Below, in pieces: positions 22,974 to 26,210 of a DNA stretch of 39,034 bases. A program made the translations under genes and the position numbers. Source of the DNA: a virus; the UHGV virus genome UHGV-0388326; one strand, given 5' to 3'. How positions within the stretch are numbered: position 1 is the first letter of the stretch; the number at the start of each line of letters is the position of its first letter. Below the pieces are notes generated by a model. The model saw only the letters and a program-made list of their open reading frames with translations, did not search any database and had not been told where the DNA came from.

Positions 22974-25085
22974 ATGACGGTCTCAACCGAAGTTGACCAC
23001 AACGAATACACCGGTAACGGCGTTACGACATCATTTCCGTATACTTTCAGGATTTTCCAGAAATCTGATCTGGTAGTGCAAGTGGTTGACCTTGATGAAA
23101 ATATCACTGTTCTTGCTCTTGATACTGATTACACAGTTACCGGGGCGGGAGGGTATAACGGTGGTAATGTAATTCTGTCGAAGGCGTTGGCTAACGGTTA
23201 TCAGATTTCTATATCAAGAGAGCTACCGGTTACGCAGGAAACCGATCTGCGCAACCAGGGTAAGTTCTTCGCTGAGGTGCATGAAGACGCATTTGATAAA
23301 CTGACGATGCTGATACAGCAGGTACGCAGCTTGTTGAGTCTGGCCCTCAGAAAGCCTTCGTTCGTGGCTAACTATTATGATGCTCTTAATAACTACATCA
23401 GAAACCTGCGAGATCCTTCACGCCCGCAGGATGCGGCAACAAAAAATTATGTTGATAGCGTTGCGGATACAAACCTCAACAAAACACTAAGAACACCTGA
23501 AGCTATTCAAGCTCTTCCTGATGCGATTTCCAGGGCAAACAAAATTGTTGCTTTTGATAGCGCTGGCCAGCCGTTTACAACATTACCCCCATCAGGTAGC
23601 GCCACCGATGTGTTAATTGAGCTGGCAAAACCAACCGGTGCAGGGTTGATTGGATTTGGCCCTGCTGGATTTCCAACTAGAGTTGTTGAAGATGTGCTGA
23701 CCGATTGTATTACAAACCGTTCATTTGGAGCTAAGTGCAATGGTATTGATGATGATACCATTCCTAATCAGCAAGCTCTTGATTGGTCTTCAGATAATAA
23801 AAGAGCTGTATTATTCATTGGTAAAACATGTATATCTTCTCGGCTTGTTCTGAAAAGTGGAGCGAGAATGGAGAATATCGGTTCCATTGTTCCAAAAAAT
23901 TTTACTGATACGGTTGTTATAGAGATAAAGGATGATGCTTGGAGGGCTCCATACAATGATGGAATAACAGCCATTCAGACTGGTAACAGGGTTCTACTTG
24001 ATAATCTGTATATTGAGCCTGACTCATCTGTCTCTGCGATAGGTATTTATGGTACTGATGGCGTTGGTCCTGTAATAAATAACGCAAGAATATTCAACAT
24101 GCTAAATGGAGGTATTAATGTTGAAAAAGGTTATGAGTGGAAATTCAATAATACATCAGTTGTAGCTCCGGAAGACCAGCTTGGAACATCTGGCGTTAGT
24201 GGGATATTGCATCGTACGTCTGATAGTATGTATGTTAATACTACAGTGGTTGGTTATCCTGTCGGTATGGAAATAACAGGTGGGGCCAATGATATAGTTA
24301 ATACGCATGTATGGGGACTGGATGGCATAAGAACAACACGCGTAATGTTGATAGGATTAAAACTAGGAGGCAGCTCAAATAATGTTGTTAATTTTTATTC
24401 TGACGCCCCGCATAAACTTGACAAGACGCAACCAGCCAGTATATCTAACGGTGGGATTGGGTATGTAATATCTGGTTTCAATAACAACCTAATTGGTCCA
24501 AGAGTTCTTTTTCATGTTAATGATGGTCCTAAGTATGGAAAGGTGTTTTATATTAGCGGGACAGAAAATAACATTAAAGAACCAGTTAGTTCTGATGTTT
24601 CTGGTATAGAAGATGATGGAGTATATGTGTTTGCTGGTTCAGCAACACCAATCAATACCACTGTGTCTGGTGGTAACTTACAAAGCTTCTATGTTTTCCC
24701 TCAGTCAACTGGGTTCAACCCAACAATAAACGCACCTTGCACATACACATCTCAGATTTATAGGCATGAAATTACCCAAAGAAGTGTTACTGGCAGACTT
24801 TCAATATCATGCAACATCACCAGCAATACTGGATCTTTAGCTTTTGCTATATCATTACCTACATATTTAAGTTCTTTCAAAGGTGATTGTGTTGGATCTA
24901 TTATACCAATATTAAACAATACAATAAGAACTGATTCAAACCTTCTTGATGTGCAAGGATACATAAGTGGGGGTAAAATATTTTTTAGAAGGATTTTTAG
25001 GTCTGGCAGCCCCGTTGATGTTTTAATATCTGATTTAATTACAGGAAATGCAACAATAGAACTAAGTTTTACTTGTCACATTTAA
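22974..25085 (+). CDS. tailspike protein (epsilon15/phiV10-type N-terminal domain, divergent AT-rich C-terminal domain)
   Basis: N-terminus MTVSTEVDHNEYTGNGVTTSFPYTFRIF recalled as the conserved tailspike head-binding domain of epsilon15-like phages; 703 aa; repetitive Gly/Asn/Val C-terminal region. Confidence 0.8.
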   Translation: MTVSTEVDHNEYTGNGVTTSFPYTFRIFQKSDLVVQVVDLDENITVLALDTDYTVTGAGGYNGGNVILSKALANGYQISISRELPVTQETDLRNQGKFFAEVHEDAFDKLTMLIQQVRSLLSLALRKPSFVANYYDALNNYIRNLRDPSRPQDAATKNYVDSVADTNLNKTLRTPEAIQALPDAISRANKIVAFDSAGQPFTTLPPSGSATDVLIELAKPTGAGLIGFGPAGFPTRVVEDVLTDCITNRSFGAKCNGIDDDTIPNQQALDWSSDNKRAVLFIGKTCISSRLVLKSGARMENIGSIVPKNFTDTVVIEIKDDAWRAPYNDGITAIQTGNRVLLDNLYIEPDSSVSAIGIYGTDGVGPVINNARIFNMLNGGINVEKGYEWKFNNTSVVAPEDQLGTSGVSGILHRTSDSMYVNTTVVGYPVGMEITGGANDIVNTHVWGLDGIRTTRVMLIGLKLGGSSNNVVNFYSDAPHKLDKTQPASISNGGIGYVISGFNNNLIGPRVLFHVNDGPKYGKVFYISGTENNIKEPVSSDVSGIEDDGVYVFAGSATPINTTVSGGNLQSFYVFPQSTGFNPTINAPCTYTSQIYRHEITQRSVTGRLSISCNITSNTGSLAFAISLPTYLSSFKGDCVGSIIPILNNTIRTDSNLLDVQGYISGGKIFFRRIFRSGSPVDVLISDLITGNATIELSFTCHI

Positions 25086-25119
25086 AATAAAAGCCCCGTT
25101 TATAATGGGGCTTTGTTTT
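25086..25119. terminator. bidirectional terminator between tailspike and acyltransferase
   Basis: AAAGCCCC-GTTTATAAT-GGGGCTTT followed by GTTTTT; A-run on other side. Confidence 0.7.
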
Positions 25120-26210
25120 TAGATAAACCTTCTCTCAATCTTAGAGTATAAGAGCAATGATGCGATAATCGTTAAAATTGCTGAAATAATTGCTAAGATT
25201 AATAAATGGACTGTTGTGAAATCAAAATCATTAAATAAAATGCTTGCTATGTTAACAATGCAAAACATTGCCGCTTGGTGTGTTAGATATATGCTATAAC
25301 TAAGAGTTCCAGCAATTGATAATGGTTTTATTTTTATCCATTTTGGATTGGAAAAAACGCAAAGAATAAAAAATGCACTAATAGGTATAACCCTCATTGC
25401 GCTGTATTGATAATAGTTACTTAATATAATATATATAATCAGAACTAGAGCTGATATAGAACATGCAAAACAAAGAATTTTATTCTTGCATGGTTTAATA
25501 TAAGAACAGATAAACCCAGTTATAAAGTACACCCACAGCGTATTATCTTCAGCGTACTGAGAATATATAACAAAGAATGAAAATATAAATAATGGTATTA
25601 GAATTGTTCTTCTTCTAAAGCAATATGCTATAAATGGTATAGCTGCGTAAAACTTCCATTCGAAAGGTAACGTCCACACCACAGCATTTAGAGATGTTAT
25701 TGTGCTACCCTGCACTCTAATTCCAGAACCAAAAAAACCAAACCCAAATATCTGCTGTATAACTCTTGATATATCATCAAAAGTAACTATTAGATTGTTG
25801 TATTTTACAATAAAAAGAATAAATGTTATTAATGACACAAATAAATAAGCTGGCGCCAGTCTTTTAATCCTCTTACCAAAGAATTCTATATCAAACTCAC
25901 CACTTTTTATTTTTGAAGAAAAAAGATACCCTGTTATACAGAAAAATAATTCAACCCCAAATGAACCAAAATTACCAAAATAATTGAAGTTTGTATAATC
26001 AATTTTTGCAGACTCAACATGATTGTTTGTCAGCATCCATGCTGAGTGATTTACAAATACAAGTATACATGCGATACCCCTGAGCCCTTCAATTGAGTGG
26101 TTTAATTTTTCGTTTTGATATACTAATTTCCTAACAGGATAAGTTAAAGCTATAAAAAATATAATTATAGACAAAGAGAATGCAATAGAAATAATTGATG
26201 GTGTAAACAT
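25119..26210 (-). CDS. acyltransferase family 3 membrane protein (putative O-antigen O-acetyltransferase)
   Basis: 363 aa, about 10 predicted TM segments, very AT-rich; convergent with tailspike as in phiV10-type seroconverting phages. Confidence 0.75.
   Translation of the reverse strand: MFTPSIISIAFSLSIIIFFIALTYPVRKLVYQNEKLNHSIEGLRGIACILVFVNHSAWMLTNNHVESAKIDYTNFNYFGNFGSFGVELFFCITGYLFSSKIKSGEFDIEFFGKRIKRLAPAYLFVSLITFILFIVKYNNLIVTFDDISRVIQQIFGFGFFGSGIRVQGSTITSLNAVVWTLPFEWKFYAAIPFIAYCFRRRTILIPLFIFSFFVIYSQYAEDNTLWVYFITGFICSYIKPCKNKILCFACSISALVLIIYIILSNYYQYSAMRVIPISAFFILCVFSNPKWIKIKPLSIAGTLSYSIYLTHQAAMFCIVNIASILFNDFDFTTVHLLILAIISAILTIIASLLLYSKIERRFI

What the first reader, a model, noticed from the sequence alone, without database searches (positions are those of the whole stretch)
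22974..26210. Mosaic tailspike plus convergent O-antigen acyltransferase: likely seroconversion module
The tailspike has a conserved N-terminal head-binding domain but an AT-rich, repeat-like C-terminal domain (from about 23700), suggesting a swapped receptor-binding/enzymatic module. The convergent, very AT-rich gene encodes a multi-TM acyltransferase-3 family protein, the type that O-acetylates O-antigen in phiV10-type phages to block superinfection. The two share a bidirectional terminator.
Basis: partly seen in the sequence, partly recalled or inferred. Interest (0 to 1): 0.5.

Follow-up and report, generated by a model that had tools for sequence, protein, structure and literature searches.

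The report
Swapped tailspike tip plus O-antigen acetyltransferase cassette
A phiV10-like temperate E. coli phage has replaced the receptor-binding end of its tailspike, and the neighbouring membrane acyltransferase gene, with one foreign AT-rich cassette that probably recognises and then masks the O153 O-antigen; this is a new example of a well-known seroconversion arrangement, not a new kind of system.

Summary
ORF 22974-25085 (+, 703 aa) is a tailspike and ORF 25119-26210 (-, 363 aa) is a complete acyltransferase-3 (AT3) membrane protein. A 33-nt spacer between them holds a hairpin that folds on both strands. GC falls from 46% (tailspike N-terminus) to 38% (receptor-binding domain, RBD) and 30% (AT), against 50 +/- 2.5% elsewhere in the window.

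The backbone is 97% identical to phage phiV10. Homology to phiV10 stops at 23500 and resumes at 26260, so a 2.76-kb cassette was exchanged.

The RBD (aa 216-703) is predicted to be a parallel beta-helix. It is 87% identical to TSP3 of lytic phage AV101, which is experimentally O153-specific. Prophages carrying this RBD sit in O153-genotype E. coli (at least 6 of 9 genomes, against 1.5% background).

The same RBD + terminator + AT cassette occurs, collinear, in P22-like prophages. AV101 keeps a roughly 200-nt relic of the AT gene. Other prophages pair this RBD with gtrABC instead.

The AT has every AT3 motif but is only remotely related to phiV10 Oac, and no deposited phage genome carries it. 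O-acetylation and superinfection exclusion are inferred, not shown. Verdict: new member of a known kind, modest interest.

The parts
22974..25085 (+). Tailspike gene, 703 aa
   Evidence: ORF. PHROG tail-protein families match the N-terminal 230 aa or so. The exact protein is found on 16 public contigs.
22974..23500 (+). Conserved epsilon15/phiV10-type N-terminal particle-anchor region (aa 1 to about 176)
   Evidence: 84% nt identity to phiV10, ending at 23500. aa 1-130 match the N-terminus of the Klebsiella phage depolymerase Dpo31/Dpo36 in the PDB, E = 3e-26. No P22 head-binding Pfam hit.
23501..23617 (+). Neck/linker region (aa 177-215), still shared with some epsilon15-like prophages but not with phiV10
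   Evidence: Homology to the epsilon15-like prophage of E. coli F1005 runs on to 23647. aa 135-233 match Acinetobacter phage tailspike necks in the PDB, E = 1e-8.
23618..25085 (+). Exchangeable receptor-binding domain (aa 216-703): predicted right-handed parallel beta-helix (aa ~254-565) plus C-terminal beta-sandwich (aa ~589-702); predicted O153 O-antigen specificity
   Evidence: 87% aa identity to AV101 TSP3. Homology to AV101 and to the siphovirus prophage starts at 23618/23619, and to P22-like prophages at 23724. AF2 per-10-residue pLDDT is mostly 70-95 beyond aa 254, with short dips. Foldseek best match is the Det7 tailspike 6f7k, E = 4.7e-13. GC 37.8%, GC3 0.25.
25090..25114 (.). Hairpin shared by the two convergent genes; candidate bidirectional intrinsic terminator
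   Evidence: Terminator scan. Folds on both strands, with U-tracts on both sides. Present at the same place in the TST3 prophage and in AV101, with a compensatory C:G to G:C change in the stem.
25119..26210 (-). AT3-only integral-membrane acyltransferase, 363 aa; predicted O-antigen O-acetyltransferase (lysogenic conversion gene)
   Evidence: PF01757, E = 6.6e-32. PHROG 3333 'O-acetyltransferase', 7e-43. Motifs R44-X10-H55, V86xxFFxITG, and R114xxR117; R44, H55, V86, F89, F90, R114 and R117 are invariant and T93 and G94 are >=90% conserved in 24 homologues. AF2 pLDDT 89, about 11 membrane-length helices. GC 29.6%.
26211..26259 (-). Cassette-specific 5' leader of the AT gene; phiV10 backbone homology resumes at 26260
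   Evidence: blastn breakpoints. No strong sigma-70 consensus found here.
23501..26259 (.). The whole exchanged cassette relative to phiV10 (2.76 kb, 34.7% GC)
   Evidence: Positions 23724-26123 form one collinear HSP (75.8% nt) with the P22-like prophage of E. coli TST3.

Best explanation
The window is the genome, in attP form, of a temperate epsilon15/phiV10-like podophage (Uetakevirus type).

Between the tail genes and the lysis cassette it carries the usual 'tailspike -> <- conversion gene' module. The business end of that module has been replaced by a foreign low-GC cassette (23501-26259).

The cassette encodes three things:
1. A beta-helix receptor-binding/depolymerase domain, fused in frame to the resident N-terminal anchor. 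It most likely binds and cleaves the E. coli O153 O-antigen during adsorption.
2. A hairpin that ends transcription from both sides.
3. An AT3-only membrane acyltransferase.

Proposed action of the AT (inferred): it is expressed from the prophage, takes an acyl group (most likely acetyl) across the inner membrane, and puts it on the O153 repeat unit. The lysogen's O-antigen is then no longer a substrate for this tailspike or for others with the same RBD, such as AV101 TSP3. That gives superinfection exclusion, stops released virions from being wasted on lysogens, and changes the serotype.

Shown here: gene anatomy, mosaic breakpoints, composition, folds, AT3 motifs, the link of this RBD clade to O153, and co-inheritance of RBD and AT across phage types.

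Inferred: the acyl group and its acceptor, expression in lysogens, and exclusion.
For: Backbone: 97% nt identity to phiV10 and its relatives over 1-22900. The position is the same as phiV10 oac, annotated 'acetylates the host O-antigen; functions in superinfection immunity'. The experimental basis for phiV10 is summarised in PMC11854483 and PMC9558356.

Cassette: breakpoints lie at 23500 and 26260 against phiV10. GC3 is 0.25 for the RBD and 0.24 for the AT, against 0.44 in the N-terminus. This suggests one foreign origin for both.

RBD fold: confident beta-helix model. Foldseek E-values of 5e-13 to 1e-6 to the Det7, CBA120 TSP2 and HK620 tailspikes, and a weaker match (8e-5) to the Sf6 tailspike.

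RBD specificity:
- 87% aa identity to AV101 TSP3. Purified TSP3 clears lawns of O153 strains and blocks AV101 infection of an O153 host (PMC10791037).
- The O153 wzx PCR primers match the O-antigen cluster of the prophage host 2017C-4173W12 exactly, giving the published 741-bp amplicon.
- That cluster is in 80 of 5426 complete genomes. It is in at least 6 of the 9 genomes that hold a full-length RBD homologue. Binomial P is about 8e-10.
- The window RBD lies inside the diversity of that clade.

AT: complete PF01757 match. The R-X10-H, RXXR and VxxFFxI(S/T)G motifs are conserved (key residues invariant, T93/G94 >=90%), as defined in PMC9558356. High-confidence model with about 11 membrane-length helices.

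Linkage:
- In 6 of 6 other loci examined, relatives of this AT (38-65% identical) lie convergent to, and right after, a tailspike gene. The phages are epsilon15-like, P22-like and a phage with myovirus-type baseplate genes.
- The three closest ATs (52-65% identical) accompany the same RBD family (54-82% identical).
- Where this RBD lacks the AT, gtrABC, a known O-antigen glucosylation operon, takes the same place.
Against: There is no experimental datum for this phage.

The AT is only remotely related to any characterised Oac: about 20% identical to phiV10 Oac and 30% over half its length to Sf101 OacB. AT3 proteins acylate many different glycans (PMC9558356).

The published O153 repeat unit (Hex2HexNAc2Pent, 862 Da) carries no O-acetyl group, so no known O153 variant matches the prediction.

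No convincing sigma-70 promoter was found upstream of the AT gene.

The RBD differs from AV101 TSP3 at 13% of positions, which could alter specificity.

The near-identical proteins are also labelled Enterobacter cloacae in one NCBI record.

The serogroup of this prophage's own hosts could not be determined.
Confidence: 0.65

Rival explanations
1. The RBD recognises a glycan other than O153, such as a related or already modified O-antigen or a capsule. The AT would then modify that other glycan.
For: 13% aa divergence from AV101 TSP3. AV101 TSP3 itself showed weak activity on O8 lawns. One NCBI record assigns the 99%-identical tailspike and the AT to Enterobacter cloacae. The host serogroup of the exact prophage was not determined.
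Against: Prophage RBDs only 73-87% identical to AV101 TSP3 still sit in O153-genotype hosts. The window RBD is therefore well inside the O153-associated clade. The prophage-form flanks (yfgI, yfgH, yfgF, ppx, ppk) are typical of E. coli.
Confidence: 0.15
2. The AT acylates a surface glycan other than the O-antigen, such as enterobacterial common antigen, colanic acid, peptidoglycan or LPS core. Alternatively, it modifies the O-antigen mainly for a host benefit, such as immune evasion or defence against unrelated phages, rather than to exclude its own phage type.
For: The AT3 family is functionally diverse, and AT3-only members act on ECA, EPS, Nod factors and antibiotics (PMC9558356). The AT has no close characterised relative.
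Against: The AT is tightly and repeatedly linked to the 3' end of O-antigen-type tailspike genes in several phage lineages. It co-diverges with the RBD, and gtrABC replaces it at the same slot. It occupies the slot of the proven phiV10 oac.
Confidence: 0.12
3. The low GC is only a compositional side effect of encoding a hydrophobic membrane protein and an Asn/Ile/Thr-rich beta-helix. There was no horizontal exchange.
For: AT3 genes are AT-rich in general: 29-34% GC in all relatives and 31% in phiV10 oac.
Against: Synonymous-site GC3 drops to 0.24-0.25, against 0.44 in the same gene's N-terminus. Homology breakpoints to phiV10, AV101, P22-like and siphovirus prophages are sharp. The same RBD is fused to at least four different N-terminal anchors.
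Confidence: 0.02
4. The AT gene is a decaying passenger that is not expressed or not active.
For: No consensus promoter was detected. A truncated relic of this gene does exist in AV101.
Against: The ORF is intact and full length. The key catalytic-motif residues are invariant. The AF2 model is confident. The 90%-identity cluster of a 99%-identical protein holds 25 member sequences. A conserved terminator follows the gene.
Confidence: 0.06

Closest known systems
Phage phiV10 (Uetakevirus) tail fiber/tailspike gp25 + Oac (PhiV10p26), specific for E. coli O157
   Same: The genome backbone is the same (97% nt). The N-terminal tailspike anchor is the same. The order is identical: tailspike, then a convergent AT3-only gene, then holins, endolysin and Rz. 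Oac O-acetylates the phage's own O-antigen receptor and gives immunity (PMC11854483, PMC9558356).
   Different: The RBD is unrelated (no BLAST hit), and the predicted target is O153 rather than O157. The AT belongs to another AT3 lineage, about 20% identical.
Shigella phage Sf6 tailspike + Oac, and Sf101 OacB (P22-like converting phages)
   Same: AT3-only O-acetyltransferases encoded next to the tailspike/int region of a temperate podophage. Acetylation sterically blocks the tailspike endoglycosidase (PMC9558356). The window AT shares the RXXR and FFxI(S/T)G motifs.
   Different: Only 30% identity over half the protein to Sf101 OacB, and Sf6 Oac was not among the tblastn hits. The phage backbone differs. 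The window AT has an extra N-terminal helix before the AT3 core.
AV101 TSP3 (WJJ54145.1), the O153-specific tailspike of a lytic Agtrevirus
   Same: The RBD is 87% aa identical over 488 residues. The terminator is the same, and about 200 nt of the AT 3' end follow it.
   Different: The N-terminal anchor differs (Ackermannviridae TSP type, PF18668). The phage is lytic, and its AT gene is reduced to a non-functional relic.
P22-like prophages of E. coli TST3/TBE6 and Proteus mirabilis (uncharacterised)
   Same: The cassette is collinear: RBD (82% and 54% aa), hairpin, and convergent AT (65% and 53% aa).
   Different: They have a P22 head-binding N-terminus (PF09008), and the cassette lies next to int/attP rather than next to the lysis genes.
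gtrABC O-antigen glucosylation operons of P22-like and lambdoid prophages
   Same: They occupy the same convergent position behind the same O153-type RBD in E. coli C1, F1005 and 2017C-4173W12. The presumed purpose, masking the receptor, is the same.
   Different: The chemistry differs (glucosylation through three proteins rather than acylation by one).

Membership tests
Acyltransferase-3 (AT3, PF01757/IPR002656), AT3-only subgroup (Oac-like) | Full-length match to the PF01757 profile above the gathering score | tested here: met
   111.3 bits against a cut-off of 31. E = 6.6e-32. aa 37-355 cover profile positions 1-325 of 326.
Acyltransferase-3 (AT3, PF01757/IPR002656), AT3-only subgroup (Oac-like) | Polytopic membrane protein with about 10 transmembrane helices | tested here: met
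   AF2 model has pLDDT 89.2 and pTM 0.88, with about 11 membrane-length helices: the 10-helix core plus one N-terminal helix, aa 6-23. Hydropathy peaks agree.
Acyltransferase-3 (AT3, PF01757/IPR002656), AT3-only subgroup (Oac-like) | R/K-X10-H motif in TMH1 (PMC9558356) | tested here: met
   R44-X10-H55 is present. Both residues are invariant in 24 homologues and in the alignment that includes phiV10 Oac.
Acyltransferase-3 (AT3, PF01757/IPR002656), AT3-only subgroup (Oac-like) | RXXR motif in the first cytoplasmic loop (essential in Sf6 Oac; PMC9558356) | tested here: met
   R114-I-K-R117 is present. Both arginines are invariant.
Acyltransferase-3 (AT3, PF01757/IPR002656), AT3-only subgroup (Oac-like) | V-X-X-F-F-X-(I/V/L)-S-G-(F/W/Y) motif | tested here: met
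   The sequence is V86-E-L-F-F-C-I-T93-G-Y, with Thr in place of Ser. The Thr is at least 90% conserved in this clade.
Acyltransferase-3 (AT3, PF01757/IPR002656), AT3-only subgroup (Oac-like) | No fused SGNH domain | tested here: met
   The protein is 363 aa and PF01757 is its only Pfam hit.
Acyltransferase-3 (AT3, PF01757/IPR002656), AT3-only subgroup (Oac-like) | Transfers acetyl to an O-antigen sugar | not testable with these tools
   Inferred from gene position and linkage only.
Phage tailspike depolymerases (right-handed parallel beta-helix) | Parallel beta-helix fold of the receptor-binding domain | tested here: met
   AF2 per-10-residue pLDDT is mostly 70-95 for aa 254-703, with short dips. 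Foldseek matches to 6f7k (4.7e-13), 8iq9, 6w4q and HK620 4xn0.
Phage tailspike depolymerases (right-handed parallel beta-helix) | Modular build: conserved N-terminal particle anchor plus exchangeable RBD | tested here: met
   The same RBD is found on epsilon15-type, PF09008, PF18668 and PF03906 N-termini. Breakpoints are given.
Phage tailspike depolymerases (right-handed parallel beta-helix) | Trimeric, cleaves or deacetylates the polysaccharide receptor | not testable with these tools
   The homologue AV101 TSP3 produces translucent zones on O153 lawns (PMC10791037). The catalytic residues have not been identified.
P22-type head-binding domain (PF09008) | Pfam PF09008 match at the N-terminus | tested here: not met
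   The tailspike has no Pfam hit. Its N-terminus is of the epsilon15/phiV10 type. 'Head-binding' applies only by analogy.
phiV10-type seroconversion module | Uetakevirus backbone with the conversion gene convergent to the tailspike, upstream of the holins | tested here: met
phiV10-type seroconversion module | Orthology of the acyltransferase to phiV10 Oac | tested here: not met
   BLASTP aligns only 95 aa at 33% identity, E = 1e-4. Identity in the alignment is 20%. Same family, different lineage.
phiV10-type seroconversion module | Modification of the phage's own receptor gives immunity to superinfection | not testable with these tools
   Needs LPS chemistry and plating assays.
Bidirectional intrinsic terminator | GC-rich hairpin flanked by an A-tract upstream and a T-tract downstream, so that either strand reads hairpin plus U-run | tested here: met
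Bidirectional intrinsic terminator | Structure conserved through compensatory change | tested here: met
   The window stem GCCCC/GGGGC corresponds to GGCCC/GGGCC in TST3 and AV101. This is a single covarying pair, so the support is limited.
Bidirectional intrinsic terminator | Actual termination of both transcripts | not testable with these tools
   Needs RNA 3'-end mapping.

The most novel reading that the evidence does not exclude
The RBD, the terminator and the acyltransferase form one co-adapted 'recognise-and-mask' cassette that moves as a unit between unrelated phage architectures (epsilon15-like, P22-like, possibly others). When a lytic Ackermannviridae phage captures it, it is stripped down to the RBD and leaves a relic of the AT gene.

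It follows that E. coli O153 should exist in at least two undescribed phage-encoded variants. One would be O-acetylated by this AT lineage and one glucosylated by the gtrABC found behind the same RBD. Each variant should resist AV101-type TSP3 and these temperate phages.
Probability: 0.45. Interest if true: 0.5.

Novelty: new member of a known kind. Interest (0 to 1): 0.33.

Why it matters
The cassette gives a concrete, testable prediction: a temperate phage that targets O153, a serogroup found among ESBL-producing, ETEC and STEC strains, and then alters it.

If the AT or the alternative gtrABC modules mask O153, lysogens would escape therapeutic or diagnostic use of AV101-type phages and TSP3. 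They might also type aberrantly with O153 antiserum.

The collinear cassette in two podophage lineages, and its relic in a lytic phage, document the direction and the unit of exchange of receptor-binding modules (temperate to lytic). This is useful for predicting host range from sequence.

The principle itself, a converting gene next to the tailspike, is textbook.

Tried and rejected
- DNA repeats in the RBD: none found. 'Repeat-like' was dropped.
- Pfam and NCBIfam on the tailspike, and NCBIfam on the AT: no hits.
- PDB sequence search with the AT: nothing at E <= 1.
- Foldseek of the AT model against the PDB: nothing significant. The only recurring weak hit was human HGSNAT (E 0.4-1.6, TM 0.29-0.39), which was not used as evidence.
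- Promoter scan upstream of the AT gene: no site above the scan threshold on the minus strand. The weak candidates seen by eye were not relied on.
- Serotyping E. coli TST3, the host of the closest P22-like cassette, failed in an informative way. Its whole O-antigen cluster is deleted (wcaM-IS1-gnd).
- O178, another ribofuranose-containing O-antigen, was considered as an alternative host type. The O178 wzx primers do not match the 2017C-4173W12 cluster, whereas the O153 primers match exactly.
- The hosts of the exact prophage (Logan and ENA contigs) could not be serotyped, because only about 20 kb around the gene is retrievable.
- Catalytic residues of the RBD were not assigned. The invariant acidic positions are listed, but there is no structural alignment good enough to choose among them.

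
Full report
OBSERVATION

The tailspike is 22974..25085 (+), 703 aa. The convergent ORF is 25119..26210 (-), 363 aa.

The composition shift is real and large:
- The window as a whole is 48.5% GC.
- The tailspike N-terminal part (22974-23617) is 45.8% GC.
- The C-terminal part (23618-25085) is 37.8% GC.
- The convergent gene is 29.6% GC.
- Same-sized windows outside the region average 0.497-0.498 (sd about 0.025, minimum 0.42-0.43).
- At third codon positions the contrast is sharper: 0.44 in the N-terminus, 0.25 in the RBD and 0.24 in the AT.

The sliding profile puts the step at about 23600-23800.

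There are no tandem repeats and no meaningful direct repeats at the DNA level. 'Repeat-like' therefore holds only for the predicted protein fold.

The 33-nt spacer contains the hairpin AAAGCCCCGTT-TAT-AATGGGGCTTT at 25090-25114. It folds at -21.7 kcal/mol (z = -6.9) on the + strand and at -14.0 kcal/mol (z = -4.1) on the - strand. A U-rich tract follows in each direction. The tailspike stop codon lies 5 nt before the stem, and the AT stop codon overlaps the T-tract after it.

WHAT THE WINDOW IS

Positions 1-22900 are 97% identical to phiV10, to O157 typing phages 9 and 10, and to other Uetakevirus genomes. The region after the cassette encodes two holins, a GH19 endolysin, Rz and an integrase.

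The exact tailspike protein is on 16 public contigs. In prophage form the element sits next to yfgI-yfgH-yfgF-ppx-ppk, an E. coli chromosomal context. Homology between the window and those prophage-form loci ends at 28306. The window is therefore in attP (phage) form.

THE MOSAIC

- Against phiV10, nucleotide homology (84%) ends at 23500 and resumes (87%) at 26260. A 2.76-kb segment is exchanged: the RBD, the spacer, the AT gene and 50 nt of its leader.
- In phiV10 the same slot holds the O157-specific C-terminus of gp25 and oac.
- The N-terminal 130 aa match the anchor domain of the Klebsiella phage depolymerase Dpo31/Dpo36 (E = 3e-26). aa 135-233 match Acinetobacter tailspike necks.
- Many PHROG tail families match the first 230 aa or so, and only phrog_1640 extends into the RBD.
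- There is no P22 head-binding domain.

THE RECEPTOR-BINDING DOMAIN

aa 216-703 have 71 homologues, all in the 49-100% identity range. They are fused to at least four different N-termini:
- epsilon15-type (about 703 aa);
- P22 head-binding, PF09008 (604 aa);
- PF18668 (616-650 aa);
- a T7-type PF03906 (704 aa).

An AF2 model built from 24 of these is confident from aa 254 onward (per-10-residue pLDDT mostly 70-95, with short dips). It shows a capping helix, a long stack of short strands and a C-terminal beta-sandwich.

Foldseek finds right-handed beta-helix tailspikes at 8-13% sequence identity:
- Det7 gp208, E = 4.7e-13;
- Klebsiella K2-2 TSP;
- CBA120 TSP2;
- HK620;
- Sf6 (weaker, E = 8e-5).

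The catalytic type cannot be assigned.

PREDICTED RECEPTOR

The RBD is 87% identical over 488 aa to TSP3 (WJJ54145.1) of the lytic Agtrevirus AV101. Purified TSP3 forms translucent zones only on O153 lawns, plus a small zone on O8. It reduces AV101 plating on an O153 host by about 5 logs (PMC10791037).

I tested the host association independently:
- Nine complete E. coli genomes hold a full-length RBD homologue.
- In one of them, 2017C-4173W12, the published O153 wzx primers (PMC7403468 supplement) match the O-antigen cluster exactly. They are 741 bp apart, the published amplicon size. The O178 primers do not match.
- The wzx-wzy segment of that cluster is present in 80 of 5426 genomes, including a strain named CE-O153H30.
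- At least 6 of the 9 RBD-carrying genomes are among those 80. Binomial P is about 8e-10.
- A seventh, TST3, has lost its whole O-antigen cluster to an IS1-associated deletion.
- The window RBD is 83-87% identical to AV101 TSP3 and to the 2017C prophage. The C1-type prophage RBD, also in O153 hosts, is only 73% identical to AV101 TSP3. The window RBD therefore lies inside the O153-associated diversity.
- RBDs at about 55% identity (L009/L012, Proteus L011) form separate groups and may target other glycans.

THE ACYLTRANSFERASE

- It is a complete AT3 domain: PF01757, E = 6.6e-32, profile positions 1-325 of 326. It also matches PHROG 3333 'O-acetyltransferase', 7e-43.
- There is no SGNH domain.
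- The three motifs listed in the AT3 review (PMC9558356) are all present: R44-X10-H55, R114-X-X-R117 and V86-x-x-F-F-x-I-T-G-Y. R44, H55, V86, F89, F90, R114 and R117 are invariant across 24 homologues, and T93 and G94 are at least 90% conserved. R44, H55, V86, F89, R114 and R117 are also invariant in an alignment that includes phiV10 Oac.
- The AF2 model is confident (pLDDT 89, pTM 0.88). It has about 11 membrane-length helices, one of them N-terminal to the Pfam core.
- No solved structure resembles it significantly.
- It is not an orthologue of any characterised Oac. It is about 20% identical to phiV10 Oac and 30% over half its length to Sf101 OacB.
- No deposited phage genome encodes a close relative.
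- Among 5426 complete E. coli genomes, megablast found only TST3 and TBE6 with a recognisable (76% nt) copy.

LINKAGE OF RBD AND AT

A single collinear HSP (23724-26123, 75.8% nt) joins the window to a P22-like prophage of E. coli TST3. In that prophage a head-binding-type tailspike carries the same RBD (82% aa). The same hairpin and a convergent AT (65% aa) follow it.

Pairs of RBD and AT identity to the window:
- TST3: RBD 82%, AT 65%.
- L022 (epsilon15-like): RBD 75%, AT 52%.
- Proteus mirabilis P22-like prophage: RBD 54%, AT 53%.
- More distant ATs of the same clade (35-46%) sit behind unrelated RBDs.
- Some RBDs at 53-56% are followed by AT3 genes with no BLAST similarity to this one.

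In all six other loci where I examined a relative of this AT (38-65% identical), the gene lies convergent to the 3' end of a tailspike gene. The phages include epsilon15-like, P22-like and one with Collar and baseplate-wedge genes. A seventh locus, the epsilon15-like prophage of F1005, has a 35%-identical AT3 in the same position.

Where this RBD lacks an AT, gtrC-gtrB-gtrA occupy the same convergent position. Examples are P22-like prophages in E. coli C1 and F1005 and a siphovirus prophage in 2017C-4173W12, all in Og153 hosts. This substitution by a known O-antigen-modifying operon is the strongest contextual argument that the AT also acts on the O-antigen.

A RELIC IN A LYTIC PHAGE

In AV101, nucleotide similarity does not stop at the TSP3 stop codon. 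It continues through the hairpin and about 200 nt of the AT 3' end, nearly identical to the TST3 prophage, and then breaks off. tblastn recovers AT residues 296-363 at 57% identity. AV101 annotates a 51-aa 'hypothetical protein' on the opposite strand there.

So AV101 acquired TSP3's RBD from a temperate phage that carried this cassette. The hairpin differs between the window (stem GCCCC/GGGGC) and TST3/AV101 (GGCCC/GGGCC) by one compensatory pair.

MECHANISM

This section is inferred, by analogy with phiV10 Oac, Sf6 Oac and BTP1 OafB (PMC9558356, PMC11854483).
1. The virion uses the beta-helix RBD to bind and process O153 O-antigen.
2. After lysogeny the AT transfers an acyl group, most likely acetyl, to a sugar of the Ribf/Gal/GlcNAc repeat unit.
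3. The tailspike groove no longer accepts the polymer.
4. This excludes the same phage and others with this RBD, AV101 included, and alters the serotype.

The published O153 unit (Hex2HexNAc2Pent1, 862 Da) has no O-acetyl, so the predicted variant is undescribed. No convincing promoter was found for the AT gene. The backbone shared with phiV10 resumes only 50 nt upstream of the start codon. The promoter may therefore lie in the conserved backbone and serve whatever cassette is inserted; this is speculation.

COMPARISON AND VERDICT

This works like, and is organised like, the phiV10 and Sf6 conversion modules. It qualifies as an AT3-only acyltransferase and as a beta-helix tailspike. It fails the tests for orthology to phiV10 Oac and for a P22-type head-binding domain.

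It is a new member of a known kind. What is added here:
- a probable receptor (O153);
- an AT lineage absent from sequenced phage isolates;
- evidence that the RBD and the masking gene travel as one cassette between podophage lineages;
- evidence that a lytic phage captured the cassette.

Interest is modest (0.33). The cassette-level reading, with two predicted hidden O153 variants, would be worth about 0.5 if confirmed.

Noticed in passing
window 22254-22337 (-) and 22362-22438 (-), upstream of ORF 21495-22220 (-): Rfam C4 antisense RNA (66 bits) and isrK (63.5 bits) lie directly upstream of a Bro-N antirepressor gene. This is a P1/P7-type c4-ant secondary immunity cassette, and it sits just left of the tailspike gene.
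   Followed up: no
L001 (AV101, OQ973471.1) 5469-5699, corresponding to window 25086-25321: The lytic Agtrevirus AV101 keeps the terminator and about 200 nt of the acyltransferase 3' end downstream of TSP3. tblastn recovers AT aa 296-363 at 57% identity. The region is annotated as a 51-aa hypothetical protein (WJJ54144.1) on the other strand. It is a molecular fossil of capture from a temperate phage.
   Followed up: yes
L016 (E. coli TST3, NZ_CP154406.1) 14272-15206: The host of the closest P22-like RBD+AT prophage has no O-antigen gene cluster. wcaM is followed by IS1 and then gnd, and galF and the rfb genes are gone. A lysogen of an O-antigen-specific phage has become rough.
   Followed up: partly
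L021 and L027 (E. coli F1005, NZ_OY754353.1): One O153-genotype strain carries two converting prophages. The first is P22-like, with the O153-type RBD plus gtrABC. The second is epsilon15-like at yfgI, with the same N-terminal anchor as the window but an unrelated RBD, and a 382-aa AT3 gene that overlaps the tailspike 3' end. The second tailspike may target the modified O153.
   Followed up: partly
L017 and L019 (E. coli 2017C-4173W12, NZ_CP030768.1): A siphovirus-type prophage (HK97-like head, TipJ) uses the same RBD on a PF18668 N-terminus, with gtrABC convergent. The host's O153 wzx is annotated as truncated, next to an IS1.
   Followed up: partly
window ~28306 (between Rz end 28179 and int start 28497): Homology to prophage-form loci (L009, L021) ends at 28306, which marks the likely attP crossover. 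The prophages are integrated next to yfgI.
   Followed up: partly
window 3488-3564 (-): tRNA-Arg (anticodon TCT) lies within the packaging/structural region, as in the O157 typing phages.
   Followed up: no
proteins P0001 and P0031 (99% identical to the window AT and tailspike): One public record assigns the near-identical acyltransferase and tailspike to Enterobacter cloacae rather than E. coli. This is either a mislabelled genome or a wider host range.
   Followed up: no
AT relatives: L011 (Proteus mirabilis), P0008 (Proteus terrae), P0015 (Hafnia paralvei), P0019/P0021 (Morganella): The AT clade and the RBD family extend into low-GC Morganellaceae and Hafnia. All AT genes are 29-34% GC. The cassette's low GC could reflect an origin in such hosts.
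   Followed up: no
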